Notes under the pieces: generated by a model | Database searches by the model: none | Seen by the model: the letters and a program-made list of their open reading frames with translations, nothing else | Told to the model about the DNA's origin: nothing | In this document: positions 5,031-61,566 of the stretch, piece by piece | How positions within the stretch are numbered: position 1 is the first letter of the stretch | Layout: the number at the start of each line of letters is the position of its first letter | Program-made: the position numbers and the translations under genes | Assembly: GCA_043228905.1 (NCBI GenBank) | Contig: JBHGNT010000022.1 | Span: 8,680,001 to 8,744,000 of the forward strand | Source of the DNA: Azolla caroliniana | Taxonomy: Eukaryota; Plantae; Polypodiophyta | DNA length: 64,000 bases | Direction: 5' to 3'

Positions 5031-5036
5031 ATGACA

Positions 5037-6587: not shown

Positions 6588-8322
6588 ACGTGCTTGGCAT
6601 TCGAAGATAACGCAATATCTTCATCAAATCGGCTTCCGTATGTCAAAATCGGACAACTCCCTCTACATACGAAGCGATTCCACAAGTCCGATTGTCATCA
6701 TCTTATATGTGGATGACCTAGTCATTGGAGGTGAGCATCTCGTCAAAATCACTAAGGTCAAATCACTAAGTTTGAGATGACGGACATGAAGGAGCTCCAC
6801 TACTTCCTCGACATCGAGGTAATTCGGACTCCAGCCGGAATCATGATCTCTCAACGACACTACATCCTCAACTTGTTATACAAGTTCGGGATGGTTGAGT
6901 GCAAATCCGTGGCAACCCCGCTCGATCGTAATCTCAAACTAGATGCGAACTCCGGCACCAAAGCGTGTGAGCCGACTCAATATCGACAACTCATTGGGAG
7001 TCTCATCTACCTCACGATCACACGACTTGATCTCAGTTATCCGGTCGGTCTCCTTAGCCAATTCATGCAAACACCGCGTGATACTCACTTGGATTGCGCT
7101 AAGTGAGTTCTACGATATGTGAGCGGCACAATGGATTGAGGCATCCTCTACAAGACCGCAATGCCAATACGACTCAAGGGGTACACAGACCCCGATTGGG
7201 CCGGCTACAAAGCCGATAGAAGATCAACCTCCGGATTTGTTTTCTCCCTCGGCAGTTGAGCAATATCCTGGAGTAGCAAGAAGCAGCCCACCGTCGCTCT
7301 TTCGAGTACGGAGGCGGAATACAAGGGCGCCGCCGTAGCTGCGTGTGAAGCCGTATGGCTCAAGAGGATTTTGAAGGATCTGGGCGTACCCATCAAGGAT
7401 CCAACTTCCCTTTACTGTGACAACATGAGCAACATCTATCTAGCTCGGAACCCAGTGTTCCACGCGCGGACAAAGCACATCAAAGTGCACTATCACTTCA
7501 TTCGAGAGCGCGTTCTAGCTAGCGATGTCGACCTACAACACATTAACACCAATCTTCAAACGACCGACATCTTCACTAAAGCCTTAGGTGCTGACAAGAT
7601 ATGGCAATTCATGACTGATCTCGGATAGACGATCCCTGACCTGCCAAGCTTGAGGGGGAGTACTGAAGACACTACGCACTAACGCGTAGATTCCGCAACC
7701 ACGCAACAAAGCCGCGAAGAAAGACGCAAGCCGAAGCACAGACTTCGCAACTACGCATGCAAGCCGAAGCATAGACTTCGTAATTACGCACAACACAAGC
7801 TGGAGCACAGATCCCGTAACTCCGCAGAAACGCGAGTCGACGCGGACTCCAGAATGCAAGTTGAAGCAGATTTCGGATACCATCTGAAACCGATCCAACT
7901 TGAGCTTGAGGGGGCGTGTTGTGAATCAAGCTCAACTTGGTCTAGTGTGTGAACTCACCTTGAGAGTGAAGAGACACCTCAACGGTCAAGAGTCACCGTT
8001 ATGTCACCACTTTGTATTCTAGCATTTAGTATGAGTCATAGAATCATATTCTATGACACATAACTTATGAGCTTTCACATTCCCCATGCTCCATGAGCCT
8101 AGTAGTTAATGAAGAGAGAGGGTGACTACATAAAGCACCCTCCTCCCACCTTGTAAAATGTTGGGTCTTTCTCCTTTGCTAATAGAACTTTATCTTGCGT
8201 ATTCTTTGTGTATTACTCCTTGTCTCTCTCATTCTCTCTCTCTCTCTCTCATACACACACAATTCACACCTATTTCCGCTTCACAAGAATCCATCTCTTG
8301 ATTTTTTACATGGTATTAGAGC
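6588..8322 (+). mobile_element. Ty1/Copia fragment A: degenerate RT-RNaseH, PPT, LTR 7917-8310, then PBS-Met
   Basis: [40 protein letters not shown] with stops and frameshifts; PPT GAGGGGGCG; LTR TGTTG...TACA; TGGTATTAGAGC at 8311-8322. Confidence 0.88.
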
Positions 8323-11300
8323 ATTGCCAGGTCCGGCGTCGCGCATCCGGAAACCATGCCGAGTATCGGCAGGCAGTCCGTCTCGATTGTTACCTCCGTC
8401 CCGATCAGGTAGTCCCTGTCGGCCTTGACTGTTGAAACAATACCCCATAGTTCGCGTTTGACTTGGGCGTATCCTCGCTATCGCTCGCTCAATACCTTCA
8501 CCCCGAACCGGATCGGGAACCATGCGCCGTCCTCATCCTTCTGGTTGATCACCCACTCGATCCCGGTCGAGCTCGTGTCCACCGTTACGTAGATGGGGAC
8601 CCCCTTACCGGAAACCACTTTACGGAGAGCTGGCGCTACCGTAAGCGCCTCCTTTAGTCTTCGGACTGACTCTGTGTGCTCCGTCCTCCACTCAAAGCTA
8701 CGCCCCTTTTTCAATAGTCCGTAGAGGGGTTCCGCGACATGTGTGTAGTGCAGGATCCAGATGTGGTAGAACGCGCATGCTCCCAAGAATCTGCGGACCT
8801 CCGTGACCGACCCGCAATCGTTCCTCATCGCAGAGATGGCCTCTACCTTTGCCGGAGACGGTCTCCTACCGTAAGGCCCACACAGGTGTCCGACCACCAA
8901 GATCTCCGACTGCCCGAACGCCAATTTTTCTCCGGAGAAGGTGAGTCGTGCGTTTTCCAACCTCTGCAGCACCTTCTCGCAGTCGTTGATGTGGTTCACG
9001 ATGAACCTCTGTCATCCATCCCGCCCAACAGTCTCGTCCGTATTATCCACCGGACACCCCTTTATTGGGATGTCGTCCAAGAATGGCATGGTGATGTCCG
9101 GGATGTAGTCCCTCAGCACCTTGTTCATTGCGTTCACCATATGCGCCACCAAATTCGTCCCGCCTTGTGGTAGGGTACACATCTGTTACGGGCATGACCA
9201 TATAATATCCCGTGGTAAGAATTTACCGTAGTATTCTATACACGTGGATAAGTGTGAGGGTTAAATGAGAGTGTAAAGAAGGGGAGGATTACTTTTAATC
9301 CTCGGGATTGAGACAACCCATTAGGTCAAGTGTGAACTTGCCTGGGGGCCTTGGGTTTTGCTATAAATAAGAGGCCTAGCTACCCTCGTTTGATCATCTT
9401 TTGACTACATCGAGACTCTGCTCGTGTGGTGGGTCAACTCTTGTAGCGAGCGCGCCAGCACCAGGTACGACTCGACGCCACGGCGGTGGTATGGGACGCC
9501 GATCGAGGCTCGAGTCCGTCTCGATCCCTTCGCTCGGGGGTGGTCGGGTGGATCGGCACCCTTCTTTCTCTTTCTCCTTTCTATCTATCTTTTCATTATC
9601 CTTATCTTAAGCTTACGTTAGTACCAAGATCTATAATATTTGGTATCAGATTTTTGTACTAATGTTTCTTTGTTTTTCATTTGTCTTTTGATTGATGCTG
9701 ATCGATCGTTGTGCGGTTGGCCTTGATCCAGACAACGATCAACAAAGAACTTCGGTAACTCTTTCCATAATTTTTCTTTCTATTCTCTCTTCTCCCATCT
9801 AATCATGTGTTTAGTTTATATGTAATTTTTTTCATTAAGTCAATGATGTTGTAGTGGTCTTTAATTGATTATCTAAAACGTTTACATATGTGCACGAGGT
9901 CAATACCTCGTTTGACATATTAATAATATGTGATGAGTGTCGTATGCGTACGAGGTTAATACCTCAATTACGTATTACGTTCACGAACATATGTTACGTT
10001 TGCGTATGAGTTTAATACCTTGATTTGTTGTAAACGATATGCGTTTGGTCTCGTATGCGTAAGAGGTCAATACCTCCATTGCGTATTACGATGATCTCTT
10101 ATTTGTGGATGTTTCGTGTGCGTAGAGGTATATACCTCGATTACGTATCTCGATCACATCATTTGTGGCTATTTACTATAACGATATGTTTAATATAGGC
10201 ATATGTGGTCACATATATACGTATTTGATCGTATATATGTGATAAGTAAACATATGTGTATATTCGTTATTACGTGATTATATCGAAAGTTGTCATGGTC
10301 GGGAAAAGGATGTTGGTGGCCGTCCTCACATTTTTGTGAGAATGGCGTTGTCACCATCCCTTTTTCAACATTTTTTTATTGTTGATAACCCCGTTGACGA
10401 CCTCGATTTCGTTACGTAAAGAAACGCCAATAGCCATAATGATGTTGAGTACGTAGGGCTTGACCCACTTCAAGTGAGGTCGCTCCAATGACGCACGTAT
10501 CCAACATCCCTCCCTCGTTACATGGATACGATGCCACCATGAGCTCGTTCTTACGAGAGGCATTCGTAATGACGTGACCATGTGATGGCCCACGTGAGCC
10601 TACTACGAAACAAGGGCTCATTTGGCTTGACCATTAGGTTGCACTTTGGCGTATGCCATCGTAATTACGAGACTTGAGGTTAGGTAACGTACCAACATAG
10701 TTTTGGTAAATGAGGGCGAAATAAGGACCCTTGACATATATGTTCTTTTAAAAAAACATATATGATCAATTGCCTCGCATATCTCTTATACGCACCAAAC
10801 ATTAAGCATTCGAGAAGAGCAACTTACTTGGTTGGCTCAAGTGTTTAATGTATTTGTTCTCGAGGTCTCGAGTTCAAATATGACCAAGACCATACAACAT
10901 CCTTGATACATATGACTATAACACATGTTTAGACTTAAGGTCTAAGTGCACCTCGGGGTCCTCGTAATAGGACTTAAAGAGCCGAAACCACTTATGTGGG
11001 CACCGAAACATAGTTTATTGTTAACATTTTTTTCGTGTATAAACTATTCATGACGCGAACATACATGGTTGAGCCTCGGGGAGCCACCATGAAAAAATCG
11101 ATATAGAGATCAGGGAAAGACATTTATTTGTCAGCCCCATGGTTTTTAAAACACCTTTGTGTTACCATAGTAACCTGATCTTGAACCTCATCTCATACGT
11201 CTACAGGGGTATTGACGTGAGATAATGATATCGATTAATGCTCGCCCATGATATGTTTACATCACGACATGATGTTATGACTATATCTCTGACCTTATCC

Positions 11301-11326
11301 TATTTCTTTTCCAGAAATAATCTTTA

Positions 11327-13222
11327 ATGGCTCAAATTAACGACCCGATGTCATCCGCTCAAGCGGAAGGAACTCAAGGGAATCCTCCTGGACAAATGTC
11401 CACTGAGATGTATTTGGCACAAATAACCCAATACCTTAGTTTCACCGCTCAACAGATGACCGAACTTCGGCAATCTCAGAGTGCTCTTGAGGCACGTGTC
11501 ATTAGTCTACAACGTGAGACTAATAGACCTGATGAGCGACAAGGTGAACCATCATTTGTCGTTAAGCCATTTACGGGAGACAAAAAGGAAAGAACCGAAG
11601 AAGCAATCTGCACATGGTTGGGACGATGGGAGTCTCATTTTGAGCTCTATCCCACGCCAGATAGTACGAAGATTGCATATGTCGGCCGAGAACTTGGGGG
11701 TAAGGCCGCCGCCTGGTGGCGTGGCCTCCGTACTATGGGGAAATTGCCTGATACCTGGACAGATTTTGTCACGGTTTTTAAGGGCCAATTTCTGCAACCT
11801 CCCTCTCGAACCGAGGCAGCACAAGCTTTAATGAACCTCTCTAGCAGGAAATTTTCCTCGCTAGAAGACTATGTTCACCATGCTAGAACCCAAATCCAAA
11901 AATCGGGTCTAGAAGGGGACAATTGGTTGATAGCTTGTTTTGTCAATGGCATCCCCAATTCGGACTATCACTGGATAGTGCACGATAAGGATCCAAAATC
12001 CTTCGAAGAGGCAGTTGAAATAGTTCTTCGCTATCAACGCACTTCGAAGAAGGACCATAACAAACCCAACGAAGCGCCCGGGACTAAGCAGTCGCAATTT
12101 GTTGGGAAACGCAAGACACCCAACGAATTCCTGGATCGCGATTGTAAGCGACAACATCCTTTTTGTGTATTCTGCAAAAAGAAGGGTCATACAAAAGATC
12201 AATGTCGAAAGCTCCAACGGAAAGAGCACGACAACAAAGCTAAAGCTGCAGAACATAAAGGTCAGATTCCTAATGTCCTTCAGGTCTATACACATCATTT
12301 AAGTAATTGTCAATGTTCTTTCCCTCACTATGTATTGGGTCCCAATGATTTACTACGTGCAAACGGGTATATCAATGGATCTCCCGTACAGTTTTTATTT
12401 GATTCGGGAAGCTCACACAATTTTGTGAATGATCGTTTGGTTCAGATATGGGGAATCCAACCCACCGTAAGTGATCACACCTACACGGTGCACTTGGCTG
12501 ATGGAAGAGTACAATACATCAACGGGGCGATTCATTCATTAGGAATTTCTATTGATACTTATATAGAGGAAGTAGACTTCCATGTAATGAATCTTTGTAC
12601 CACCGATGTAATACTGGGTTATCCCTGGTTTTATAATAAAAACTCTTCTTTATTTATTGATTGGGTTCGTCATTCCATTTCTTTTGTACTGAACGATTGT
12701 ACGCATTTTATTCAATGTGTAAAAAAACAATCCCTCTCGATTGTTTCCTCGTGTCCATCAATATCCGAGTTGTCTTGTTCTACGTTATTTTATTGTGTAC
12801 TTGATCCGGACATTCACGTTTACAATATCGATAATGTCCCGATTCAATTAACATATTTTGAACAACAACAACTTGATGAAATCTTAAATGATTTTCATGA
12901 TGTTTTTCCAAGTGAACTACCTGATGGGTTACCTCCTAAACGTAATATAGACCATCGTATAGATATTGTACCTGGTGTTGCACCAATAAGTATACCTCCG
13001 TATCGCTTAAGTCGATCCGAAAAAGATGAGGTATCTAAGCAACTCAAGGACTATTTACGAATGGGTTATATACGTTATAGTAAATCTCCATGGGGTGCAC
13101 CAGTTCTCTTGGTTAAAAAGAAAGAGGGCACATGGCGTATGTGTATTAATTACCGACGCTTGAATAAAGTGACGATCAAGAATTCGTATCCATTGCCCCG
13201 GGCTGACGATCTAATTGACCGT
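11327..13222 (+). CDS. gag-pol: Gag-PR-RT(N-terminal) of element E, 5' part of a single gag-pol ORF
   Basis: [14 protein letters not shown] knuckle, [10 protein letters not shown] protease, [13 protein letters not shown]...[12 protein letters not shown]; rejoins 16742 in frame (LIDR|LQG) once F is removed. Confidence 0.92.
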
Positions 13223-16200
13223 TGTCGTAGTGTATTTTGTACACTACGTGAAAAACGTATATAGTATTAGATTCAATAAAAAATGAAGAAATAGAAGAAA
13301 ATAGCAAAATAAATGGAACATGCATAGGGCAAGATTCAAACCTTGCACCTCCATGTTAATAATGTAATGTCTTACCATTACACTAGCATTTCATTAGTGT
13401 TAAAGCATAGATGTCCCACATAGAAAGGTAAATTCACGCTAGGATAAACATTAGAAAAACGCATAACAAAAGAAAAAGCTACACATACACATCTAGCGTG
13501 CATGATAAAAAACGCACAAGTTAGAAAAAAGCATGATCACTTTAGATAAAGCATATAGTCTATCTATAGGAAAAGCATGGGGTCTATAGTTAGAGAAAAA
13601 GCATGGATTACTAAGACTTCCTCATCACTACATAAGGATGGGGAGCACAATGTAATTGTGTGTGAAATACTTGGAAACTGGATATGTTTCTAAAAAACAC
13701 CAATTAATAAACTATACTCGTGGGATTCACGAGGATTCTATATCATTCTCTTTCAACCCAAATTTATATTCTTATATTCATATTGATTAATCTAATACAA
13801 TATACTCGTGGGATTCACGAGTTTGCTATAACTCTTTCTTACAACATATTTATATTCTTATTAGCCTTAAAACTCTCCTCTTCCTAGTCCAAAACCCCAG
13901 TGGTTCCCACCCGACTCACGCAAACGATCCGGAGCCGAAAGGCACGACACAGTTGGTGAACCCGACGTGAAGGCGGGTGGCAAGGAGATGGAGAATCAAC
14001 AAGAGGCGATGAACATGATGATGATAATGTTTGAGCGGATGCAACAAGAACAACGTGCGATGTCGGAGATGAAGGCGGCAGTAGAGCGGCTTCTGCGACG
14101 AAACGGGGAATTCAACGGTAAGGGTGTGTCACGCTACCTACGTGAATATAAGGCGGAGATGATGCAATATCGGATACCGGAAGGATTGCAAGTGATATCC
14201 TTTAGTCGGGTGGCCTCGGACGAACTACAAGAGAGAATCCACAAGATACAACAACAAAACTCGACATGGGAGTCCTTTGAAGAAGCTTTACGGGAGGCAT
14301 ATGACTATGAGAGATGGACGGGACGAGATCGACGAGAATTCGACGAATGGGTGGCGTCGGAGAAGACTCACCGAAGTGCAACGCAAGCGTTCCTAGAGTT
14401 CGAGCATCGTTTTGCTCGACTCTCGGAGCGGGAACGAAGATTGGTGGGAGGAGATAAAGTCTTAATGTTCGTAAGATCGATCGATCGAAAAGAAAGGATG
14501 GACATCGGGATCGAACTCGAAGACGATGATGGTACGAATGGTCTTACCGAGGATTGGGCTAAAGTCGAAAGGGTATGCCGAAGACATGATGAAAGGAAGC
14601 TGAGAATCTCGTCAACAACGACATGGCCCATGAAGGATGGTCGATTGAGGAAAAACGATGAAGCCAATATGAAGGCCGAAATACAACATGATGGTACCAC
14701 GGGAGAAAGAGTGGAACAAGACACCCACTCGTCTTGTGAAAGAACGATGGCGAAGGATAAGGCCGATAATTCAAGTGTAGAAGGAAATTTCGGGATACAA
14801 GTGCCCGAGACATCGGGTCAAAAAGGGGTAAGCATAATAGATGTTTGCATAATTGATGCAGATAAAGAGTGTGAAGCGGATGTGATTAAGGAGGTAGCCA
14901 CAAAAGACGAAATCGAATCGGAGGTGGCTATGGACGAATCAATGGCGGATTGCCATATCGAGACTTCCCCACCACTGATTCCAGAGACTCCGGCGGTTGC
15001 GATCGAAAGGCAACGTGAGACCGAAGAGACGGAAGGTGGCGGAGAGAAAACGAATGTCGAAGCCGACGAATACGATGAAGAGATAGTCGAGAAGAATGCT
15101 AAGGGTGAAACTACGAAAGAAGGTAATACCGAGGATTCATGCCAACAATATCTAGAGACTTCGGCGGTTGTGTCCGAGAACCAACGTGAGACCGGAGAGA
15201 CGGGAGATGGCGGCGAGGAAGGTAAAGTCGGAAGTCGGTTCGGATGGAAAATGATTCATCCGAAATTCCAATCTAAAAGAAAGTGCGACAATGCGGAGGT
15301 CGGGTCTACGACGGGAGAAGCGCGTAATACAGAGCACGCTCTACGGCGAATAAAGAAACGCGTGTTATGGCGAATAAAGAAGCACGCGCTACGGCGAGAA
15401 AAGAAGCATGCATTACAACCACACGAGGACCGAACAACGAGCACATATCGGAGGACCTACGTGGCGAACAACGGAAAGAAGTGCCAAAAGTCGAACCGGA
15501 CAAGGCAGGTGAAAACGAAGAAAAGAAAGCAAATCCGGACGAAAAGAAAAGAAAAGAAACCGACCCGAAAGAGCACTGAATCGGTAAAAACCGATCAACC
15601 GAGTCCGGATCGACCGAATACAAATCGGAAAGGAAGCCGAACTAAACGAAAGACGATCCGACGAGACCGAATCGGAAGTAAGCTAATCCGACTAAACCGA
15701 AAATCCGAAAAGAAGTCGAGATTGATGAAGAAAAGAAAGAGGGCAAGAAAAGATACTACCGCGGATGACAAGGACCAAGCGGGCCATGCAAAAAGCGAAC
15801 GAAGACTATGGTGGATCGGATGTCGACAATGGTTCGGGTGGAAAGAATGGATGTGCTCCAAATGGAGAGACAAAGTCAACATAACAAGAGAAGTCGAGGG
15901 TACTACGAGCCGGCAACGAAACCAATCGGGTAGAGACCGGACGGAGGAGACTAACAAACACCAACAACTTCGGCACATACCGGAGGATGTGCGGGTTTGG
16001 AGGGGGTGAGTGTCGTAGTGTATTTTGTACACTACGTGAAAAACGTATATAGTATTAGATTCAATAAAAAATGAAGAAATAGAAGAAAATAGCAAAATAA
16101 ATGGAACATGCATAGGGCAAGATTCAAACCTTGCACCTCCATGTTAATAATGTAATGTCTTACCATTACACTAGCATTTCATTAGTGTTAAAGCATAGAT

Positions 16201-16737
16201 GTCCCACATAGAAAGGTAAATTCACGCTAGGATAAACATTAGAAAAACGCATAACAAAAGAAAAAGCTACACATACACATCTAGCGTGCATGATAAAAAA
16301 TGCACAAGTTAGAAAAAAGCATGATCACTTTAGATAAAGCATATAGTCTATCTATAGGAAAAGCATGGGGTCTATAGTTAGAGAAAAAGCATGGATTACT
16401 AAGACTTCCTCATCACTACATAAGGATGGGGAGCACAATGTAATTGTGTGTGAAATACTTGGAAACTGGATATGTTTCTAAAAAACACCAATTAATAAAC
16501 TATACTCGTGGGATTCACGAGGATTCTATATCATTCTCTTTCAACCCAAATTTATATTCTTATATTCATATTGATTAATCTAATACAATATACTCGTGGG
16601 ATTCACGAGTTTGCTATAACTCTTTCTTACAACATATTTATATTCTTATTAGCCTTAAAACTCTCCTCTTCCTAGTCCAAAACCCCAGTGGTTCCCACCC
16701 GACTCACGCAAACGATCCGGAGCCGAAAGGCACGACA
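13223..16737 (+). mobile_element. Non-autonomous gag-only LTR element F (3515 bp), TGTCG family
   Basis: 727-bp LTRs 13223-13949 and 16011-16737 (one difference seen); 4-bp TSD CCGT; 18-nt PBS TGGTGAACCCGACGTGAA 13954-13971; PPT GGAGGGGG; no PR, RT or INT. Confidence 0.93.
13988..16009 (+). CDS. Gag-derived protein with acidic middle and Lys/Arg-rich C-terminus
   Basis: First ~210 aa align by eye with Gag of element G; the rest is unrelated and has no CCHC knuckle; the ORF is open from PBS to PPT. Confidence 0.8.
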   Translation: MENQQEAMNMMMIMFERMQQEQRAMSEMKAAVERLLRRNGEFNGKGVSRYLREYKAEMMQYRIPEGLQVISFSRVASDELQERIHKIQQQNSTWESFEEALREAYDYERWTGRDRREFDEWVASEKTHRSATQAFLEFEHRFARLSERERRLVGGDKVLMFVRSIDRKERMDIGIELEDDDGTNGLTEDWAKVERVCRRHDERKLRISSTTTWPMKDGRLRKNDEANMKAEIQHDGTTGERVEQDTHSSCERTMAKDKADNSSVEGNFGIQVPETSGQKGVSIIDVCIIDADKECEADVIKEVATKDEIESEVAMDESMADCHIETSPPLIPETPAVAIERQRETEETEGGGEKTNVEADEYDEEIVEKNAKGETTKEGNTEDSCQQYLETSAVVSENQRETGETGDGGEEGKVGSRFGWKMIHPKFQSKRKCDNAEVGSTTGEARNTEHALRRIKKRVLWRIKKHALRREKKHALQPHEDRTTSTYRRTYVANNGKKCQKSNRTRQVKTKKRKQIRTKRKEKKPTRKSTESVKTDQPSPDRPNTNRKGSRTKRKTIRRDRIGSKLIRLNRKSEKKSRLMKKRKRARKDTTADDKDQAGHAKSERRLWWIGCRQWFGWKEWMCSKWRDKVNITREVEGTTSRQRNQSGRDRTEETNKHQQLRHIPEDVRVWRG

Positions 16738-16741
16738 CCGT

Positions 16742-19279
16742 CTCCAAGGAGCTCGGTATTTTACGAAACTTGATCTCCGTACTGGCTACCATCAAATACG
16801 AATAAGTGAGGACGATGTTCCTAAAACGGCATTTCGTACGCGCTATGGCCATTACGAGTTTTTGGTTATGCCTTTTGGTTTGACCAATGCTCCGGCTACT
16901 TTTCAACAAGAAATGAATGACATTTTCCGAGAACAACTTGGAAAATTTGTCGTTATTTTCTTGGATGATATTTTAGTTTATAGCCGTACATTACAAGAAC
17001 ATGTTAGACATGTCCGCTTTGTTTTACAAACATTGCGTGACAAACAGTTTTATGCGAAGATCTCAAAATGTGAGTTCTTCAAGAAATCAATTACTTATCT
17101 AGGACATCTCATAACCGAACGAGGAGTTGAAATTGATCCTTCTCGCATTGAGAAAATCAAGCTTTGGCCCACTCTTCGGAATATTCGAGAAGTTCGATCA
17201 TTCCTTGGTTTTGTGGGGTTTTTGCGAAAGTCTCTTCGTAATTACTCCCAATTGACGATGTCGTTTACTGATCTTTTAAAAGGTCAAACGTGTAAGTCTA
17301 CAAAACCTATTGTGTGGAATGCTACACTAGACCTTGCATTAAAGGAACTCAAGGACCTAGTTTGCAAGGCTCCTTCACTTCTTTTACCTGATCCTTCAAA
17401 ACCTTTTGAGGTTGAAACCGATGCAAGCGATTATGCTATAGGTGTTGTCTTGTATCAAGATGGTAAACCAATAGCATTCGAGAGTAAGAAACTTGATTCT
17501 GCTCAATGTCGGTATACCGTTCAAGAAAAGGAATTATTTGCAGTTATACATGCACTCGAAACATGGCGCCATTATCTTTATGGAAATCACTTTGTGGTAA
17601 CTACGGACCACGAGTCCTTGAAATATTTTTGTGACCAACAAGACCTGAAAGGTCGTAAGGCACGATGGGCTGATCTCATCCAGGACTTTGATTTTTCCAT
17701 ACGATATCGTAAAGGTTCCATGAACATTGTCGTTGATGCACTAAGTCGCATCCGTGAAGTTAACACGCTTAGCTTCACTGAAATATCATCAGATCTTTAT
17801 GATCACCTTCGAGGAAAGTATCCTGATGACAGTTATTTCGCAAAATACTGGGCTAGAGTTGAGTCTGGAACAGACACCACCACATCCTTGAAGGAATACT
17901 TCCACATTGCTAACGGTTTGCTCTACCGTAATGGGAAGGTTTGTGTTCCAGATTTACCCGAGGTCAAAAAGAGGATTCTTTTTGAATGCCATGATGCACC
18001 CTCAACAGGGCACCCTGGAATACATCGTACACTCGTTCTCATCTCCACTCAATTTTATTGGCCTAAGATGCGTCCTGACATACATAGCTATGTGACTAAA
18101 TGTCACCAGTGTCAGGTTAACAAAGCCGAGCGACTTAAAGCCGCAGGACTTTTACATCCCTTGGACATTCCCAATAATAAGTGGGAAAGTATATCCATGG
18201 ATTTTATTGTTAGCCTTCCTCGCACCCAAAAAGGTCATGATGCCATCTGGGTTGTCGTTGATCGACTAACTAAAATGGCCAGATTTATTGCTACTAAAAC
18301 CACGGTAACAGCTCCTGAATTGGCTTATCAATTTGTTGACGAATTGTTTTGTTTTTATGGGTTACCGATGGATATCGTGAGTGATCGAGATCCAAAGTTT
18401 ACTAGTGACTTCTGGACACAAGTCTTTAAGAAGTTAGAAACTACGTTGAGCATGAGCTCCACGGATCATCCTCAATCCGATGGACAGACAGAACGAGTAA
18501 ATCAAATTATTGAGGACATGCTTCGAGCATACGTTGGTGCAAAACCAACAAAATGGGAACGTTATCTCCCAATTTTGGAGTTTGCTTATAACAGCTCCAA
18601 GCATACGTCGACGGGATATAGTCCTTTTATGTTGATGTATGGTTTTCAGCCACGAGCCCCGATTGATGTTAATATACATCATGATGAGTTGCGAAGTACG
18701 CAAAAATTTCTTCGGGATATGCAAGATATGTTGCATATTGCACGAGATAATATAAAAACAGCTCAAGATAGAGCGCGTTTTTATGCCGATCATCATAGGC
18801 AACCTCGTGTATTCAACCCTGGACAGAAGGTATTTTTACGTGTACCTCACAATTCTAAGACATTGTCTACGGGTAAGTGCGCTAAGTTAGCCCCACGGTT
18901 TTGTGGACCTTTTACAGTCCTCAAACGCATTGGGTCATCAGCCTATCGTCTCGCTCTTCCCGATGGTGTCGGAATTCATCCAGTCTTTCATGTGAGTCGT
19001 CTAAAAGAACTTCTAGGTTCTGGCGACAATACAGTTACGACTGAAACTCTGGTTACTTCTGAAGAATTATCTTCTAAACCACATGTACCAGAAAGAATTC
19101 TCGATGTTAAAACAAAAAAATTACGTACTAAAGAAATCCGAGAATTCAAAATAAAATGGATGGATAAATCAATAAAAGATGCCACATGGGAACGCGAAAA
19201 TACTCTTAGAACTAACTTCCCTAACTTTCCATTGCAAGAGTGCAATGTTTTAAAGAGGGGGAGTATGTTACGGGCATGA
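16742..19279 (+). CDS. pol: RT-RNaseH-integrase-chromodomain of element E (3' part)
   Basis: [36 protein letters not shown] integrase, GPF motif, chromodomain PERILD...KIKW...DATWE. Confidence 0.93.
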
Positions 19280-22200: not shown

Positions 22201-22997
22201 CTTCTTACCGGTTGGCACCAATACCGGCTCCTCAAGCCTCCTCACTGGGACCGGCCCTGACCCCGACGAGCTTTCATCGCTCCAATCGCGCCGTTTGTTG
22301 AAACGGCTACAGACCCGTTTTACCATGGCCCAGTCTATCGTGAGCCCTTTGTCCGTTTCCAATAGGGGACCCACCTTTTCCCGATCGAGCGCGTCCACCG
22401 ACTTGACAAACAGTGGTACTCGACTTGTTTCGAGCACGATCCGGTCCAACGTCAACAGCCGCGTGAACCGTTTTTCGAACTCCTGGAGGAGCGCCGACGT
22501 GTTCCTCACTTTTCCAGGGCTTTCCACCCACGCCATGAAGTCCCACCTCGACAGCCAAAGCGAGTCGTCAAACCCGTACTTCTCGAAGAGCTGAAGCTCC
22601 AACTCCTCCCAAGTCTGGCATCCGGCCAGCACCTCGAGCACCTCCGCGTGGATGCTCGGCGTCACCACTTGAGGGAATCCGGACAGCCGCCTGTCCACTG
22701 GGATATCCCTCATGATCATTTCGGCCCGGTAAACCTCCAAATAACTTGTGGCGTCTTTCCCTCCGAACCGGCCTATAGTGCCGACGATCGATTCAATGGC
22801 TCTGTCGAGGGTACCCGTCCCCTCACGAGCGCTTACCAGCCAGTCGACGGCTACCACCATTGCCTCTAGTAGCTCTGATCCCCTCATCTTTCGACTCTGT
22901 TGCCGCCTTTTCACGTCGGGTTCACCAAAGATGTTGCGTTGTTACGCACGTGCATGTAGAAAGAGACAGGACCACAGGGGGCCTTGAACCGAGGAGC

Positions 22998-23028
<31 letters not shown>

Positions 23029-29200: not shown

Positions 29201-29347
29201 GGAAGCGAAGAAAGTGGATTACAACTCATAGTCGACATAAGGGGAGAATCGGAGGAAGCTTCGGATGAAGACGGATACGAAGAATCAAGAACTTCGGCAC
29301 ATACCGGAGGATGTGCGGGTTTGGAGGGGGCGAGTGTCGTAGTGTAG
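26235..29347 (+). pseudogene. pol: pol of element G (RT with in-frame TGA, RNaseH deleted, intact integrase)
   Basis: DLYSGYDQF, LPQGATNS, FLDD; TGA at 27504-27506; frameshifting deletion near 27872; integrase H-H-C-C, ADRGE, NGKIERGH, WFGPY, acidic tail and no chromodomain. Confidence 0.88.
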
Positions 29348-31150: not shown

Positions 31151-31219
31151 TGTCGCGTTGGTATGCGCGTGCGTGGAGAACAAGGCGGGACCACTGGGGT
31201 CTTGGACTGAGGAATAGGT

Positions 31220-31258
<39 letters not shown>

Positions 31259-31849
31259 CACTCACACACGTATAGACAAAGAAGCGCACGCGGACGTAGC
31301 CCAACAACACAGGAGACACGAGTTGAGAACGCTAGCGTATGTATATAAATATGTGTATGTATTTGTATGTATGCAAACGACTCGAACGGTTACAGCCGAT
31401 CAGGTCGGCGAGATGGATGTCGGCGCCTGATCACCCATGCACACAGGAGAGCAAGATGGAGATTCTGCCGGAAGCACACGGGCGTTCCACGGAGCAGGAT
31501 CAGCCTCCTGAGAACCTGCGCAAAAGAAAGCTATGGAGAACGATAGAGAAGAAGAGGTCGGTCCCAGTCCGACAGCACTTCGTCCCCTCTAGCGCGCGAT
31601 ACCTTCTCTCCCCCATCTCCCTCTCTTTTATTGCTCAAGGAGGGTGGCCATTTCACCCGTTTACATCAAATTAATTCTCTGTCCTTTCGGACAGAGATAC
31701 TCCTCAATTTCCCCTATAGAATATTGCTACCTAGGATTTGACCTTTGTGCCTACCTATCCACTATACAACAAGGGGTGTGCCGATGTGTAAGGGCCGGTT
31801 CACACACACCATACACGGTTTGCGCCTGGGGACGGTTTTCTTCACGACA
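31151..31849 (-). repeat. Solo LTR, TGTCG family (similar to LTRs of H and D)
   Basis: TGTCG...CGACA ends; 4-bp TSD ACGG at 31147-31150 and 31850-31853; reverse-complement similarity to 33357-34042. Confidence 0.88.
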
Positions 31850-32338
31850 ACGGGGAGTGGTTCCAGATCGGCGGGTTCCTGAAGACAATGACACCGGACA
31901 CGGCGTGGACGAAGGAATTTGGCCAACCGGATTCGGAAGAAAGCGTGCCAATTCTTCCTACGGGACAGGAGCATATGGAAGCACCCAAAGAAGAGAAATG
32001 GCATCCCGCTCCGAGTGGTGGCAAAGAAAGAGGAATAGGAAGAATTGCTGACTGTGTACCGCGAGAGTCCCTGGGTCAAACACCGCGGGACGTGGGCCAC
32101 ATTCGAGAAGCTAAAGGGGAAGTACTGGTGGTTGGGACTATACCGGGACGTGCATCGGTTCGTGACGACTTGCGAAAGTTGTCAGGTGCACTCCATAGTC
32201 TGACATCGGGATGAGCTTCACCTGACCTACCCTCTGACCATCCACTTCAAGTGGATGGTGGATCTGGTGACGATGCCGATGGGGGTAGAGCAAATGTGGT
32301 ATCTGGTGCTGGCTTGGGAGGACCTGACGAACCAGGTG

Positions 32339-32510
32339 GAAGGCCGAGCGGTGCAGAGCAAAACGATCGCGGTCGTGTGCCGATTTCTAATCGAAGAAGT
32401 GGTATGCCGGTATGGGTGCGTAGGGAAGGTCGAGCTTTGCAGAGCAAAATGACCGCGGTCGTGTGCCGATTTCTGATCGAAGAAGTGGTATGCCGGTATG
32501 GGTGTGTAGG
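32339..32510 (+). repeat. 86-bp tandem duplication inside the integrase of H
   Basis: GAAGGYCGAGC...GGGTGYGTAGG repeated at 32339 and 32425 with several mismatches. Confidence 0.85.
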
Positions 32511-34042
32511 TAAGATCGTGGCCGACCGCGGGGAATTGGATGCGCAAGAGGCGGAAGAGTTGTTTGACCGGCTAGGAATTAAACTCTCGCTCACCACGGC
32601 GTATAATCCGGAGGCTAACGGGAAGGTGGGGCGCGGACATGGGCCGATCGTCAAAGTGTTAGTACGGGCGTGTGGAGGCCAAGTCGGGAATTGGCCGCGA
32701 CTCTTACCCTACGCGTTGTAGGCGGACTGAACTATGCACAGTTCGGTAACCGGGTTCATGCCGACAGAGCTAATGTACGGGCAGAAGCCGATCATGCCAA
32801 TGGAGCAGACAATCTCCTCATGGGCCACGATGGACTGGAAAGACAAGATGAGCCGGGAGGAGCTATTAGTGGCACGGATTCGGCAGCTGGAGTGAAGACC
32901 GGAGGACGTGGACCGAGCCGCGGAGAAGCTGCGGAGGGCGAGGGTAAAGAACAAAGGACGGTTCAACCGGACTCACCGATTGAGACCAAAGAAGATCAAC
33001 GAAGGCGACTGGGTGCTAGTGTATGATAGCAACCTCGACAACCAACACAGAGCAATGCGGAAGTTTGCATGAAGGTGGTTCGGGCCTTATGTGCTGAAAA
33101 GCGCCAATTACAATGGGACCTACCATCTCGCGGAGCTCGACGGGACAACGATGCCAGTACCGGTGGCGGGGAAGAGGATCAAAACATTCAAAAAGCAGCA
33201 CGAGGCTGAACCGAACCCAGACGACCTGGATGGCGAAAACGACCGGCACGAAACGGATGCCGATACGGAGGACGAAGGATGAGCATGGGCCGGTCTTCTC
33301 CAACAACAGTCTAATTTTGGCGCATACCGGTGGATGCGCAGTTAGGTGGGGGCGGATGTCGTGGAGAAAACCGTCCCTAGGCGGAAATCGCGTATAACGT
33401 GCGTAAACCGGCCCTTACACGTGGGCACAAGTTTTGTTGTATAGTATGTAGATAGGTACAAGTCGGCCGAGGTGAAATCCTATGTAGCACGCATTCAGTA
33501 GGGAGAAAATCGAGGCATATCCCTGTTCGAAAGGACAGGGAATAAACATGATGTAACGGGTGGTAACAGCCTCCCTCCTTGGGCTATAAAAGAGAGGGAG
33601 AGGTATTGAAAAAGATATCGCGTTTGTGGAGGACGAAGTGCTGCCGAACTGGAACTGAGCGCTTCTCCTCTCCTCTATCGTCTCCATAATCGTTCTGTGC
33701 AGGTTTCGGGAGGCTGACTCTGCTCCGCGGGATGCCCGAGTGCTCCCGGCAGAGCCTCCATGTCGCGTTTTGTGTGTGTGTGTGTGTGTGTGTGTGCGCA
33801 GGCGTCGGAGCCCATCACTCGTCGACTTGCCGGTTGTAACACCTTGATTTATATATACATAAACATTCGTTCTGTCTGCATCTTGCGTTCTATAGCTAGT
33901 TGCAATTCCTGTGATTATGTGGGTCTGTGCGCGGGTGAATTCCATCATTAGTTTCCTTCCCCTCCCATCATTCGGTTATTTCTCGGTCCGAGGCCCCGGT
34001 GGTCCCGCCTTGTTCTCCACGCACGCACGTAACAACACGACA

Positions 34043-37000
34043 ACGTCCTTGTAAACGATTACTTGCGGAAGCGTTAGAAAAACAGAGAAATTAGGGAATA
34101 CACAGAGTACCCGGGAGAGACAGAGAGAACAGAACCTCAAAGCTATATTCAAAAATATATAAAACACTCTGTACATACAACTATGCTCAGTAGCATTATT
34201 TATACAAGTCCTCGTGGGACTGACAGAAGTACCGCGTACTTCAATCCTCACACGAGCATCTGACACTTACTACAAGACTATAATTGCCTAGTAGTCTACA
34301 TTAATACTAGGCTTCCGGTTACTGATTGGATCCGGCAAACCGGCTCCCTAGCTCACCGACTTTGTTGCTTGTCGGCTCAGTCGCTCACAGCTTACCGATC
34401 CGTCTCGCTTGCCGGCTCAGGCTTATTCAGCCGATCCTGCTCCAGTTGAGCTTGCCGCTCAACACTCCCCCTCAAGCTCAACTTGAGGTTGGATCCTGGT
34501 GTTAGTCTCTGTGGCAGTCGGTTCTTCCAACCAACTTCTCCTGGCATCACTCCGCCTTGCTCACGCTCCTCGTCCGGTCTGGTTCTGTTTGTCACGACCC
34601 CTCTTGTTCTGCGCGCCTTGACCTTCTCGGTCGGTATGTCTGCTCAATAGGCCCCTCTCAACTCCTTCGCTGCTATGACTCCGGCGCTTGCCGATCCGTC
34701 GGTTCCTCCGCAATGGCATCGACTTCCGCTGCATCCGTGTCTACTTGGCCTTGAATTGATCCAATTCTTCCGAATCTGTCTTTTGAACCGAATCGATTGT
34801 CTCTAATTCGTTCTAGCTCTTGTCCGAATCGGTTGCTCCCAATTCGTCTTTTAGTTCCAAGCCCTTCACCACATCGGACCATGTCCGGGTCTTGGCCTTC
34901 TTCCTTCGGTTGGCTCTGTCCTTCTTGACTCTACCGCCTTCTGTTCTTCCCCCACCAGCGCAATCGGCAGTCTCTTTGCCTTTGCCCGTTCCGGTGTTTT
35001 TGCCCGTTCTCACTCTCAAGTGTGGCACGTCGAGATGTTAAACACCAAGCATGTTGGTGAAGTGTTGCAACTTGTCTGATCCAAGTGGTTTGGTGAAGAT
35101 GTCGGCAACTTGCCGATCCATGTGAACATACCAAAGTTCAACCTCACCACTCAGGACACGCTTGTTGGGATTTCGGTCCCTCCGGATGGGATGTCCGGAG
35201 ATGAATGACGGCAAGCCCGGTTGCGGTTACGGAGCCGGATGATGAAGACCCCGGTTACGGAGCCGGATGATGAAGACCCCGGCTACGGAGCCGGATGATG
35301 AAGACCCCGGTTACGGAGCCGGATGACGAATGTACCCGGAGAGAGATCCGGATGCGGAGACATATTTGTGAATATGTTTGCCAAGAGCCCTTGAGGCTAT
35401 ATTTGTAAATAGCCCGAAAGTCATATGTGTATAAATATGACTTAGGGCAAACAGTTTTACTGTTGCTTCTCATTTTTTCTGTTTTTTCCACTTTAGAGGA
35501 GTGAAGAGAGAGCAGCCGTGAGAGAGAGATAGAGCGCGAGAGACGAAGAGGTAGACGCCTCTGTGTATTTCCGCCGCCTGTGGCGAGGACAGCGAGCTCA
35601 AGGTCGTCGCCTTGCAGCTCGCCATTGTATACTTCTCTGTATAGTGTTGGTTTGGAGTCTTGTACTCCCGTGGTTTTTCCCGTCTAGGGTTTTCCACGTT
35701 AATCCCTGTGTACTCGCGTTTTGTTTCTCCGTGTGGTTCCTATTTTCTGCTCCATCGATTCGCGCTTACTCGGTTGTGGCCGAGTGAAGAAGGTAAATAG
35801 AAGGGTCTATTCCTTACAACGCTCACGCACGAAGTGATAGTGCACTTCTATGTGCTTTGTGCGAGCATGGAATACGGGGTTCTTGGCGAGTTGCATGTTG
35901 CTTATGTTGTCGCAGTAGACCAGAATCGGGGTCGGTACCTCGATCCGTAGGTCTTGTAGTAGTCACCGAAGCCAAATGGCATCACAGGTGGCAACGGTAG
36001 CGCCCTGATACTCAGCCTCAGTGCTCGACAGAGCAACTGTTGGCTGCTTTTTGCTTCTCCACGCAACAACCGCGCTACCTAGGCAAAACATGTAACTAGA
36101 GGTCAATCGACGATCTGATGCATCGTTGGCCCAGTCGGCATCCATGTAACCGACGAGCTCTTCGGGTATACCGTGCCGGTACAACAGTCCCCGGTCCTTC
36201 GTGCCGCTGACATACCGCAATATCCTTTGCGCGCACTAAAGGTGCTCCACAGTCGGCTTCTGCATGAACTAACTTATCATTCCGACCGGATAGTTGATGT
36301 CGGGTCGTGTGATAGTCAAGTAAATAAGGCTTCTGACAATCTGTCGGAACCGTTGCTCGTTGCAGGCCGGTCCGGAGTTGGGACGAAGCTTCTAGTTCCG
36401 GTCCAAGGGTGTGGAGACAAGTCAGCATTCTGTCATGCCGAACTTGTACAACATATTCAAGATGTAATGCCGTTGTGAGAGCAATATGCCGACCGGGGTT
36501 CGGATCACCTCGATCCCTAGAAAATAATGAAGGTCCTCCAGATCCTTCATCTCAAATGCGTCCGACAACTGGGACTTGACGCGGTTGATTTCTGGAACTC
36601 CTGGTCCGGTGATGACTAGATCATCAACATACACCAGTATTCATACCAGACCGGCTGAGCCTTGCCGGATGAACAATGAAGAGTCCAATTTGGAGACCAC
36701 AAACCCCATCTTACGCAACCAGTGCGTGATCTTCGCATTCCAAGCTCGAGGGGCTTGCTTCAGGCCGTACAATGACTTCTTTAGCTGGCATACCGCCAAC
36801 TTGTTCATCTCTGATTCAAAGCCGGGGGGCTGAGTCATTAAGACTTCTTCTTCAAGATCACCCTAAAGAAACGCATTCTTCACATCCATCTGATGAAGAT
36901 GCCACCCCCTTGCCGCAGCAACCACCAACACCACTCGAACCGTCGTCATCTTCGCTACAGGAGCGAAGGTCTCGTCGTAGTCGATTCCGTGGGTTTGCGC

Positions 37001-40899: not shown

Positions 40900-40908
40900 A
40901 CAAAACGG

Positions 40909-41524
40909 TGTCGCGAAGATTCGCGCATGCGTGTGCTACTCGAGCGACCATCGGGGTCTTGGACTGGGGAGGACGTTCGCGGAATTATCGAAGAGATGAA
41001 AATCAATGTAAGATTGGATGAAATTTGTTCACTTGAGAAGAAGAAAGATTGTACACTTGAGAAGTAGAAAAATATGAAGAAGATAAAGACGAATATAATT
41101 ATATTGATGTTAGTGGTGTTGGTGATATCACATATTGAGCCCCCCTTTACAAAAGCTCCATTAGGGTTTTTATAGCTCTCCTCATGCACAAAACCATGGG
41201 TTTAGAACCATGGTTTTGGGGACACGGTTTTTCTTATGACATGCACAATCCATGGGTTTAGAACCATGGTTTTGTGCACATGGTTTTCTATGGTTGTTTC
41301 GTCTATAATTCGTATATGAAAAGGAAATACATAAAATCTACACTATATGATAGTTGTCCTAGTGATAAGGCAAGTGCAAGGTTCAAACCTTGCTTGCACC
41401 CCTCTATATGAACTCAAGTGCCACTAGGCCTTAGGCTTATTTGCTAAGTGTATGTGCAATGTTGTACATCCTTGGTTTATTCGTCTCACTCGGTTTCACA
41501 CCGTAGCCGAAAATCGTCACGACA
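40909..41524 (-). repeat. Solo LTR, TGTCG family (divergent)
   Basis: TGTCG...CGACA ends; flanks ACGG (40905-40908) and ATGG (41525-41528); U5 motif CCTCCCCAGTCCAAGACC on minus resembles family LTRs; internal ~56-bp repeat at 41192-41290. Confidence 0.75.
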
Positions 41525-44500
41525 ATGGCTCCCCTTGCAAACATCATCACGTATTCGGTATCTGCATCAACTGACATGTTGAAATCCGTGAACCCTTCCA
41601 ACACGGGATTACCTCAACCGAATCAGAGACATACACAAGAGGTGCCTTCTAGAATTTATTTAGCCGGACCCATATCCTTCATTGCAAAGAACTTTCCTAA
41701 AGCCTTCTTCAGGCTTGCTATCTTCTTCGTGTCCTGTCCAACTATCAACATTTCATCAACATATAATAGGAGGATGAGAAAGTCTCCTCCCTCATACTTC
41801 TTCACGAAGACATAGTGGTCAGATTGTGTTTTGTGGACCGCATGTTCCTTCATGAAGGGTGTTTTCTTTAATCCGTATAAGCTCTTCCTCAACCAACATA
41901 CTAGGTTTTCCTTGTCTTTCTTTTCAAATCCTTCTGGCTACCCCATGTAGATTTCTTGCTCTAAATCTCCATGCAGGAAAGCCATTTTGACATCCATTTG
42001 TTTGATATCTAAGTCCATGCTAGCCGCAATGCTCAGCACCATCCATATGGATGTCATCTTCACTACTGGTATTTCATTGAAATCCACACCCTTCTTTTGT
42101 TGAAATCCTTTCACCACAATTCAGGCTGTGTATCTAGGTGGATTGCCTCCTTCTCCTGGCTTCAATTTGTATACATATTCTCTTTCCAGAAATCTCCGGG
42201 GGGGCCTTTTGTCTTTCAAAGGGTATCTTCTGCCTTCATTTGTAGTAGTCGGCTCCTGTTCGACCTCTTCAACCAAGACTTCATTTGAATCAGATTTGGA
42301 TCCTTGTTTAGCCAATTGTCTTCTTCCAACTGGCTCTCCTTGTGTACCTATCGAAAATGTTGTCTCAGTTGACCCCCAATGTTCCTCAATTAGCTTTTGA
42401 CTTTGCCAGCTATCTACTTGGTTGACTAGTTCGCATCCAATTTCGGTGGGATCAACTTGAGTTCGATTAGGCTGACCAACAACTCGGCTCGAATCATCCG
42501 AGCTAGATTTGGCTGTGGTAGTTGGAGGCATGTTTTCAGTTGATTCGGAGGTTGATCCCATTTTCTCCATCTCTCAGTTGGCAATCCTCTTTTCTTCCAT
42601 AAAGAAGATATATTGGCTTTGAATCACCTTCTTGTCGATTAAGTTCCACAATCGATAGTCAAATTCGTCTTCAGAATAGCTTAGAAATCTGCACAGTCAA
42701 CTCTTGGGATCAAGTTTGCACCTTTGGTCCTTAGCTACATGTACGTACGCTAAGCAATCGAACACCTTCAGATGTCGGTATGCCACCTCTTTGCCAAACC
42801 ACACCCTTTGTGGTATATCACCTTCCAGTGGTACCAAGGGAAACCTATTTATAATATAAACCACCATTATCAATGCCTCGACGCAATACATCTTTGACAA
42901 TTTTGCATGAACCAACATGCATCGCAATTTTTCCATGATTCTCGGGTTCATTCTTGGGACCAATCCATTTAGTGAAGAGAAATGCACAGAATATCGTTCG
43001 GCCACAACCGAGTAGTAAATCACTTCTATAAGAATCAAACACAGAAATGGGAAGTGGAGAGTACACAAGAAAATGACACTGGATGTTTACATGGAAAACC
43101 CTAATTGGGAAAAACCACGGGAGCCCACAGTCTCCGAACTATCACTATGAAGAGAAGGGGTACAATTAGAGACTCAGAGGCAATGACCTCCAGCTCTGTT
43201 TCTTCACATAGTGGTGGTTACAACAGAGTATCACTCTGTATCTCTTTCCCTCTCTCTCTCTCTCTTTGTACAACAGTTACAACAATTTGACAACAACACA
43301 ATCACACTAAAGTGATTGCCCTAAGTCATATTTATAGTTATATGAACTTAGTGCTATTTACAAATATAACCTCAATGGGCTTATTGAAGACATATTTACA
43401 AATATGTCTTCTCTTTCAGTTCTCACCGGGTCCATAGGTTCAGTTTCCAGGTAGTCGACACATTTGTTCATATGCACATTTTTCATATCTAGTAGGAGAT
43501 CTTTCTCAATCAACATCTGCATCCCCTTTTGATTCATATGGCACAACCTCTTGTGCCACAACTTGCCGGTTGTGTCTGCGGCCATGTTTACCTGGTTTCA
43601 GCACAATTGTGCATGCAATACATACAATGTATTTTGCTTCTTGGCCCGTGCCACAATCAAGTTCCCCTTGCAAAATTTTCAGATTCCATTTTGGAAGCTA
43701 CCATTATAGCCCTCATCCTCTAGCCGTCTGGTTGATATTAGATTTAGCCTGATATTCGGTACATGGCATACGTCCTTGAGCACCATTCTGCAACGTGTCG
43801 ATGTCAACAAACATACATTGCCGATTCCCACAATCATGCATGCATTATCATTTCCCATCTTTACGTAGCCGTAATCGCTGGGTGTGTAGGATGAGAAGCT
43901 CTCTTTGTTGGGGGTCAAGTGAAATGAGGCACCGAAATCGACCACCCATGTTGATTCTTTGTTGGCGAGGTTTACATCATTTTGTTCACTAATCAACAAT
44001 AGTTCCTCCTCACTCGTGGTGATGGCTGAGGTGGTCTTGTTGTCCGAAATCTTTTTCGGCTCGCCACCATCAGCTCCCCCTTTGTCCTTCCCGTAATGTC
44101 GATAATGTTATGGATGTGCCTCAACTTCCCACAGTAGAAGCATGTGAGTCTTCCCTTCGACTCTGACCTCGGCCTGAACCTTTCCTTGTTCTATGGACTT
44201 CTCTATTTTCCCTTTCCTTTGTTGGAGTCACCTTCTATGACTAGGGCCTTAGGGTCAGAGATGAACTCTCTATCCTTTCAATGAGCTTCTTGATTCAGCA
44301 AGCTCGACTTCACCATCTCCAAGGATAGTCGATTCCCTTGCAGTTCCCCGTTACCCAAGGTTACCACGAGTGTCTCCTCGCTGTCCAAAAGGGATCCCAG
44401 CAACAACAATGCTAGTACCTCGTCAGACAAAGATACTTCTAGAGAGGTGGTCTGATTTATCATTCCTTGGAAGGCATTCAGGTGCTTAGCCATGCTTGAG

Positions 44501-52978: not shown

Positions 52979-53025
<47 letters not shown>

Positions 53026-53132
53026 CACAAGTCTCGACAGTTTGAACCGAATATTCTTTTCTTCTTCTCCAATTTCTTCTTCTTCTTCTCTTAAACTTAT
53101 TTAAGCAAATCTAGCAAATCTCTCTCGTAACT

Positions 53133-58114: not shown

Positions 58115-58174
<60 letters not shown>

Positions 58175-61525: not shown

Positions 61526-61566
<41 letters not shown>

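What the first reader, a model, noticed from the sequence alone, without database searches (positions are those of the whole stretch)
6588..41528. A Gypsy family that inserts at CpG: 4-bp TSDs with a central CG in 7 of 7 insertions
Seen: every TGTCG...CGACA-family insertion with a readable outer flank sits next to nCGn. The flanks are ACGT (6588-6591, one side), CCGT (13219-13222 / 16738-16741), GCGT (23369-23372 / 30123-30126), GCGC (30295-30298, one side), ACGG (31147-31150 / 31850-31853), ACGT (34043-34046, one side) and ACGG/ATGG (40905-40908 / 41525-41528; the second copy fits CpG deamination). Other families here have 5-bp TSDs with no shared motif (ACATC, ACGCT, TGAAC, RCACC). Even if CG occupied 1 in 10 positions, 7/7 by chance would be about 1e-7. 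The integrase (27884-29347) has no chromodomain, only an acidic tail. Inference: the integrase reads a palindromic CpG, possibly methylated, which steers insertions into CpG-rich or methylated transposon bodies. This would be a chromodomain-independent route to heterochromatin targeting.
Basis: partly seen in the sequence, partly recalled or inferred. Interest (0 to 1): 0.85.

Follow-up and report, generated by a model that had tools for sequence, protein, structure and literature searches.

The report
Phygy-type retrotransposons that insert at CG
These plant jumping genes almost always land on the letter pair CG, a habit already published for the moss lineage Phygy to which they likely belong, and their enzyme likely reads the plain DNA sequence; whether it senses methylation is untested.

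Summary
All 11 flanks are as quoted. In 38 independent outer flanks from metagenome contigs, 33 have CG at positions 2-3 and the other 5 have TG or CA; background CG is 4.3%.

It is not new. Neumann et al. 2019 report a 4-bp NCGN TSD in 100% of 186 Phygy elements of the moss Physcomitrella. The window's elements fit Phygy: no chromodomain, no extra RNase H, compact, and a primer site recalled as tRNA-Trp. No labelled Phygy sequence was available for a tree.

Corrections: these are several families of one lineage, and the 6.75-kb copy is defective.

Additions: the host is probably a fern, relatives occur in liverworts and Chara, and the motif sharpens to VCGB. That is the generic signature of 4-bp-TSD integrases narrowed to CG.

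Nothing here supports methylation reading or heterochromatin targeting. Flanks are barely CpG-richer near the site (4.7% versus 3.9%), and CG-centred targets are also known for ZAM/Tirant and Ginger1. The scan's earlier notes hold no such finding.

The parts
5037..6587 (-). E1: 5' LTR (6587-5719), PBS at 5714 and start of gag; cut off by a Tcn1-like chromovirus; outer flank ACGT 6588-6591 (one side)
13223..16737 (+). E2: non-autonomous element, 727-bp LTRs (1 difference), PBS at 13954, gag-like ORF only; TSD CCGT 13219-13222 / 16738-16741; sits in a chromovirus pol
23373..30122 (+). E3: 6750-bp element, identical 788-bp LTRs, PBS at 24165, gag-protease ORF 24100-26238, pol 26115-29347; TSD GCGT 23369-23372 / 30123-30126; sits in the LTR of E4. 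Pol is broken by a stop at 27504-27506 and lacks about 164 codons (RNase H) at 27875 compared with natural relative P0335
27884..29347 (+). Integrase part of E3 pol: H2C2 zinc domain, D131-D190-E225 core (D-to-E spacing one residue shorter than in PFV), SH3-like C-terminal domain with GPY motif, disordered acidic tail (residues 421-487), no chromodomain
28952..29005 (+). Conserved loop between strands 1 and 2 of the integrase C-terminal domain (residues 357-374; Q363, K369, F370, W374 in 89 of 89 relatives, H364 in 85 of 89); candidate target-reading loop, by analogy with PFV Arg329
   Evidence: role inferred
8319..30294 (-). E4: older element; 5' LTR 30294-30127 plus 23368-22932, PBS at 22927; split by E3 and by a chromovirus (9184-19720); 3' end lost; outer flank GCGC 30295-30298 (one side)
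31151..31849 (-). E5: solo LTR, TSD ACGG 31147-31150 / 31850-31853; 75% like the LTR of E6, in whose pol it sits
30299..34042 (+). E6: decayed RNase H-integrase region and 3' LTR 33357-34042; outer flank ACGT 34043-34046 (one side)
40909..41524 (-). E7: solo LTR, flanks ACGG 40905-40908 / ATGG 41525-41528; tied to the lineage by its termini and by one contig in run X10
45835..47168 (-). Old CpG-depleted pol fragment of the same lineage (continues at 58400-58534); no termini read, so no TSD
9184..19720 (+). Control: chromodomain-bearing Gypsy element, 5-bp TSD ACATC
35163..35818 (.). Control: solo LTR of another family, 5-bp TSD ACGCT
47169..52516 (+). Control: Copia element, 5-bp TSD TGAAC
52615..58190 (+). 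Control: Tcn1-like Gypsy element, 5-bp TSD GCACC/ACACC

Best explanation
These are several families of a non-chromovirus Gypsy lineage, likely Phygy, in a land plant that is probably a fern; they make 4-bp TSDs centred on CG, and the integrase likely reads that sequence directly, without needing methylation. Shown: the 4-bp duplication, the central CG, the avoidance of T before and A after the CG (VCGB, ACGT commonest), and an integrase without chromodomain. Inferred: like other integrases that cut with a 4-bp stagger, it must kink the target at the central pyrimidine-purine step. Lineage-specific contacts would narrow that generic preference to CG; the candidates are the invariant loop of the C-terminal domain and the shortened, acidic helix after the second catalytic Asp. 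Any bias towards transposon bodies would be passive: insertions follow where CG survives, which here means young elements (4-8% CG) rather than decayed elements and the gene region (1.6-2.4%). The TG/CA flanks would be later deamination or occasional use of another YR step.
For: 33 of 38 independent flanks are CG, and the other 5 are TG/CA. One further flank, of the E5-type subfamily, is ACGC. T beside the CG occurs at 1 of 66 positions against 21.5 expected, and A at 41 of 66 against 16.5. Serrao 2015 (section 6) reports for 4-bp-TSD retroviruses a central YR step with T and A disfavoured at positions 0 and +3; its abstract says these preferences are largely independent of chromatin. Phygy has a 4-bp NCGN TSD in 100% of elements, a tRNA-Trp PBS in 81%, and no extra domain. 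The nearest solved folds are PFV intasomes and Ty3. PFV Arg329 lies in the same C-terminal loop and contacts target bases. There is little CpG gradient around the sites, and the position of insertions in the window fits CpG counts (P 0.12).
Against: No labelled Phygy sequence could be compared, and REXdb describes Phygy as specific to P. patens. tRNA-Trp identity of the PBS is recalled; my attempts to show it failed. A full-length copy would be about 7.2 kb (6750 plus the missing 164 codons), below the Phygy range of 7656-9968. No methylation data were available, so independence from methylation is assumed by analogy. The loop is modelled at low confidence (pLDDT 59 at 361-370), and no call aligned it residue by residue to PFV Arg329. 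TA, also a YR step, occurs in 0 of 38 flanks, so flexibility alone does not explain the pattern.
Confidence: 0.78

Rival explanations
1. The integrase reads or prefers methylated CG, so insertions are steered into already silenced DNA without a chromodomain.
For: All 5 non-CG flanks are TG or CA (P 6e-5); T resembles 5mC (recalled). Solo LTR L029 has CA on both sides. All 7 window insertions are in transposons, and 17 of 38 flanks match repeats of the window. Phygy domains are reported as enriched at predicted centromeres of a liverwort. A paper on CpG methylation affecting retroviral integration in vitro is cited in PMC5408687 (title only seen).
Against: TG/CA is equally expected from deamination after insertion. 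The window is nearly all transposon, and the 17 of 38 has no baseline. The hosts keep CpG o/e near 1, while the depleted regions carry no insertion. ZAM/Tirant use CGCG in Drosophila, which lacks CpG methylation (recalled).
Confidence: 0.12
2. Two layers: the integrase reads plain CG locally, while the conserved acidic tail binds a chromatin or host factor that biases insertion regionally, for example to repeat-rich or centromeric chromatin.
For: An acidic tail is kept across 89 relatives (median 29 residues, 46% D/E). Phygy nested in Tcn1 was the commonest repeated pair in P. patens. Centromere enrichment is reported in Apopellia.
Against: The tail is disordered (pLDDT under 50) and conserved in charge only. 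No genome-wide distribution was available. The 89 rows include close relatives.
Confidence: 0.15
3. The pattern is an artefact of boundary calling, circular family assignment or small numbers.
For: 3 of 7 window cases are one-sided; E7 was grouped by its termini; one pair has a mismatch.
Against: The 38 outside flanks were chosen by LTR sequence only. Only k=4 fits, and uninterrupted paralogues agree. One X10 contig joins the E3-type purine tract to a sequence matching the E7 LTR start at 28 of 30 letters.
Confidence: 0.01

Closest known systems
Phygy lineage, Ty3/gypsy non-chromovirus (REXdb; Neumann et al. 2019, PMC6317226)
   Same: 4-bp TSD with NCGN, no chromodomain, no extra RNase H, coding region filling the internal part, PBS recalled as tRNA-Trp.
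   Different: Described from P. patens only, at 7.7-10 kb; here the host is probably a fern and a whole copy would be about 7.2 kb. The VCGB refinement is not in the passages read.
Ginger1 DNA transposons (Bao et al. 2010, PMC2836005)
   Same: Gypsy-type integrase with GPY/F motif; 4-bp TSD CCGG (75%) or CCGT/ACGG (24%).
   Different: Cut-and-paste DNA transposons of animals with terminal inverted repeats; C preferred before the CG, whereas A is preferred here.
Drosophila errantiviruses ZAM and Tirant (review PMC5408687)
   Same: Gypsy elements with a palindromic CG-rich target (CGCG) and partly heterochromatic distribution.
   Different: Insect lineage with env and AGT termini; regional bias is linked to 5'-UTR repeats; CGCG has GC, not CG, at its centre.
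PFV and other 4-bp-TSD retroviral intasomes (PMC4422553, PMC4005685)
   Same: 4-bp stagger, central YR step, T/A disfavoured at the TSD edges, same integrase fold.
   Different: Their preference is weak; here it is 87% CG.
Selgy and TatI (REXdb)
   Same: Non-chromoviruses with 4-bp TSDs; TatI uses tRNA-Trp.
   Different: No NCGN reported; Selgy is about 5 kb with tRNA-Ala; TatI has an extra RNase H.

Membership tests
Phygy | RT, RH and INT cluster with REXdb Phygy | not testable with these tools
   The REXdb fasta and element table are too large to read; no P. patens-labelled hit among the rows listed. The tree shows only one clade with Riccia elements, apart from the window's chromoviruses.
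Phygy | 4-bp TSD | tested here: met
Phygy | NCGN target | tested here: met
   7 of 7 in the window; 33 of 38 outside
Phygy | No chromodomain | tested here: met
   No Chromo hit in the E3 integrase or in 5 relatives, while the window's chromovirus scores 7e-07; tail disordered
Phygy | No additional archaeal-type RNase H | tested here: met
   One RNase H region only in the 4 full-length relatives scanned; E3 itself lacks that region
Phygy | PBS mostly tRNA-Trp | tested here: inconclusive
   The same PBS occurs in 4 window elements and 9 loci and is complementary to an abundant CCA-ending plant small RNA. That this is tRNA-Trp is recalled; searches found no tRNA gene.
Phygy | Short; polyprotein fills the internal part; 7.7-10 kb in P. 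patens | tested here: inconclusive
   ORFs fill E3 from LTR to LTR; a whole copy would be about 7.2 kb, slightly under the range
Chromovirus (Tcn1 and others) | Chromodomain; 5-bp TSD | tested here: not met
Tat (TatI) | Additional RNase H | tested here: not met
Selgy | About 5 kb, tRNA-Ala PBS, no target motif | tested here: not met
   E3 is 6750 bp even with a deletion, above the 4432-6724 range; strong target motif

The most novel reading that the evidence does not exclude
Phygy is not a moss oddity but an old lineage across non-seed streptophytes (fern, liverworts, Chara) whose integrase reads methyl-CG through an invariant C-terminal loop: an LTR integrase that senses DNA methylation directly and so lands in silenced DNA without a chromodomain.
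Probability: 0.1. Interest if true: 0.78.

Novelty: new member of a known kind. Interest (0 to 1): 0.22.

Why it matters
As it stands, this extends a published but little-followed preference from a moss to a probable fern: a search for NCGN with retrotranspos- gave 3 papers, and by their titles only Neumann 2019 concerns this subject. It sharpens the motif to VCGB and names integrase residues that could explain it. An integrase with 87% preference for one dinucleotide is a clean model for how target specificity evolves. Because CG decays in old and genic sequence here, reading CG may passively keep insertions in young transposons. It would matter much more if the integrase proved to sense methylation.

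Tried and rejected
No genome is held for the window, so there is no genome-wide logo or baseline.

Viral contigs gave 0 matches for the LTR end.

Read laying pools the loose ends at the LTR end (59 contigs in X2 and 51 in X9 at 30122), so single flanks could not be read.

Jedlicka 2019 supplement 7 is cut before P. patens and has no Phygy rows or sequences. The Vendrell-Mir 2020 data sheet showed only figure legends at the RLG2 hits.

Search for the primer tRNA: 0 hits in viral contigs; 37 prokaryote matches, none a tRNA.

Cluster look-ups gave no organism names.

A link to fungal Ylt1 elements was considered from recall; Novikova 2010 (passages) gave nothing on their targets, so it was not tested.

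The CGACA at 58849-58853 has no CG outside it, but I saw no LTR or PBS there, so it was not counted.

The GCK gene comparison places the host only broadly.

Full report
Observation. All 11 quoted flanks are in the sequence. They belong to seven insertions, E1-E7, in a nest of LTR elements. E2, E3 and E5 have perfect two-sided duplications for which only length 4 fits, E7 has one mismatch, and E1, E4 and E6 have one readable side. Contigs of other copies of the LTR that E3 interrupts run from 23371 directly into sequence like that behind 30126 (5 contigs each in X2 and X3), which confirms the 4-bp duplication. Coordinate arithmetic on the ORF that E2 interrupts also fits 4 bp. E7 lies in a Copia RNase H region ending ...FARGA, and a Copia ORF of the window continues this motif with V. 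That fits ACGG as the original target and ATGG as the deaminated copy (inference). The four other elements with readable ends have 5-bp TSDs. CG makes up 4.8% of window positions, and 11 of 143 non-terminal TGTCG/CGACA words have CG at the same offset.

Independent test. A scan of metagenome contigs with the 24-nt LTR end shared by E1-E3 gave 52 loci. I dropped 9 PBS junctions, 2 further internal junctions (L004, L036) and 3 duplicates. Of the 38 outer flanks left, 33 have CG at positions 2-3, 3 have TG and 2 have CA; background CG is 4.3% (P 4e-40). Among the 33, the base beside the CG, symmetrised over both sides, is A 41, G 13, C 11 and T 1 of 66, against 21.5 T expected. The motif is therefore VCGB, and ACGT is the commonest 4-mer (14 flanks). 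T at +5 is weakly enriched (18 of 38, P 0.006), and none of the 7 right-hand flanks in the window shows it. One E5-type end in L015 is followed by ACGC. Caveats: the exact-match scan favours young copies of one subgroup and flanks that assemble, most contigs come from a few assemblies, and most give one side only.

What the elements are. They are not one family. The E1-E3 LTRs share 75-87% local identity, E5 and E6 share 75%, E4 shares only short stretches, and E7 has no match. One contig of run X10 joins the E3-type purine tract to a sequence matching E7's start at 28 of 30 letters. E1-E4 carry the same PBS 4 nt behind the LTR. E3 has identical LTRs, but its pol has a stop at 27504-27506 and lacks about 164 codons, the RNase H, compared with the 98-99.6% identical natural protein P0335. 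E2 encodes only a gag-like ORF. Both were therefore probably mobilised in trans, unless the breaks are younger than the insertion. Named relatives of the integrase come from Riccia, Ceratopteris and Chara, and of the RT from Riccia. In an RT tree of 35 rows, the window's E3, E4 and old 46-kb fragments fall in one clade with them, far from the window's chromoviruses. The GCK gene at 61.9 kb scores best against ferns among the named proteins I compared (Ceratopteris 124 bits, Adiantum 109, mosses 89-90), so the host is probably a fern.

Prior art. Neumann et al. 2019 (passages, section 15 and supplement file 5 read) state that Phygy elements have an insertion preference for NCGN. Their table lists 186 elements, 4-bp TSD in 100%, 7656-9968 bp, tRNA-Trp PBS in 81%, and no extra domain. 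Jedlicka et al. 2019 (passages) found GC-rich centres in 4-bp plant TSDs, and Phygy nested in Tcn1 in P. patens, much like E2 in a chromovirus here. The window's elements meet every Phygy feature that I could test cleanly. PBS identity is recalled, the length is slightly under the range, and the defining tree could not be built because the REXdb files are too large to read. Those files may bear on membership and on whether VCGB is visible in the moss data. Of the paper searches, whole-word Phygy gave 18 papers, NCGN with retrotranspos- gave 3, and gypsy + target site + CpG + 4-bp + Physcomitr gave 0. None of the titles concerns methylation-guided Phygy insertion or fern Phygy targets, but most subscription papers are not searched. 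The scan's own notes gave no matching finding.

Mechanism. Shown: the integrase has H2C2, DDE and SH3-like domains, an acidic disordered tail and no chromodomain; its nearest solved structures are PFV intasomes and Ty3. From the literature: retroviruses with 4-bp TSDs select a flexible central YR step and disfavour T at position 0 and A at +3 (Serrao 2015, abstract and section 6). That is the VCGB pattern with the centre relaxed. PFV Ala188 and Arg329 contact target bases, and Arg329 lies in the loop between C-terminal strands 1 and 2 (Serrao 2014, passages). Inferred: this lineage narrows YR to CG by direct contacts, since TA is absent (0 of 38). Two lineage features sit at the right places. 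The loop at residues 357-374 has Q363, K369, F370 and W374 in 89 of 89 relatives. The residue three places after catalytic D190 is E or D in 88 of 89, with a D-to-E spacing one shorter than in PFV. These 89 rows include close relatives, the loop is modelled at low confidence, and no contact was computed.

Methylation and heterochromatin. I could not test methylation. Indirect evidence does not call for it. CpG is 4.7% within 50 nt of the sites and 3.9-4.1% further out. In the window, the hosts of the insertions keep CpG o/e near 1 (the Copia fragment right of E7 is 0.53). The regions right of 41.5 kb are depleted (o/e 0.41-0.74) and hold no readable insertion, which CpG counts alone explain (P 0.12). 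Reading CG would thus favour young transposons over decayed repeats and genes by a few-fold, passively. Against uniqueness: Ginger1 transposons make CCGG or CCGT/ACGG TSDs with a Gypsy-type integrase (passages), and ZAM/Tirant target CGCG (passages).

Verdict. It is most likely the published Phygy NCGN preference, seen in a new host group and refined to VCGB. The methylation reading remains an untested possibility of about 10%. Interest 0.22.

Noticed in passing
window 41529-64000 versus 1-41500: A step in CpG content: o/e about 1.0-1.3 in the left nest, and 0.41-0.74 in the older elements and gene region on the right.
   Followed up: partly
window 9184-19720: Chromovirus whose LTRs end in TA rather than CA, with a clean 5-bp TSD and LTRs 99% alike.
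   Followed up: no
window 61527-62659: GCK-domain gene preceded by a 340-bp partial tandem duplication of its 5' part, 88-92% alike.
   Followed up: partly
window 13954, 24165, 22927, 5714: The PBS is complementary to the abundant plant small RNA filed as miR894, which PMC5846777 maps to gypsy elements; it is probably a tRNA 3' fragment (recalled) that could silence this lineage.
   Followed up: partly
window 13871-16009: E2 carries a 712-codon ORF: a gag-like first third, then an acidic and a lysine/arginine-rich region with no Pfam match.
   Followed up: no
P0093, P0098, P0103: Integrase relatives in Chara braunii at about 40% identity, although Neumann 2019 found no non-chromoviruses in the algae sampled.
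   Followed up: no
window 32338-32518: An 86-bp tandem duplication inside the E6 integrase.
   Followed up: no
L002: A 71-bp internally deleted solo LTR with intact ends and an ACGT TSD.
   Followed up: no
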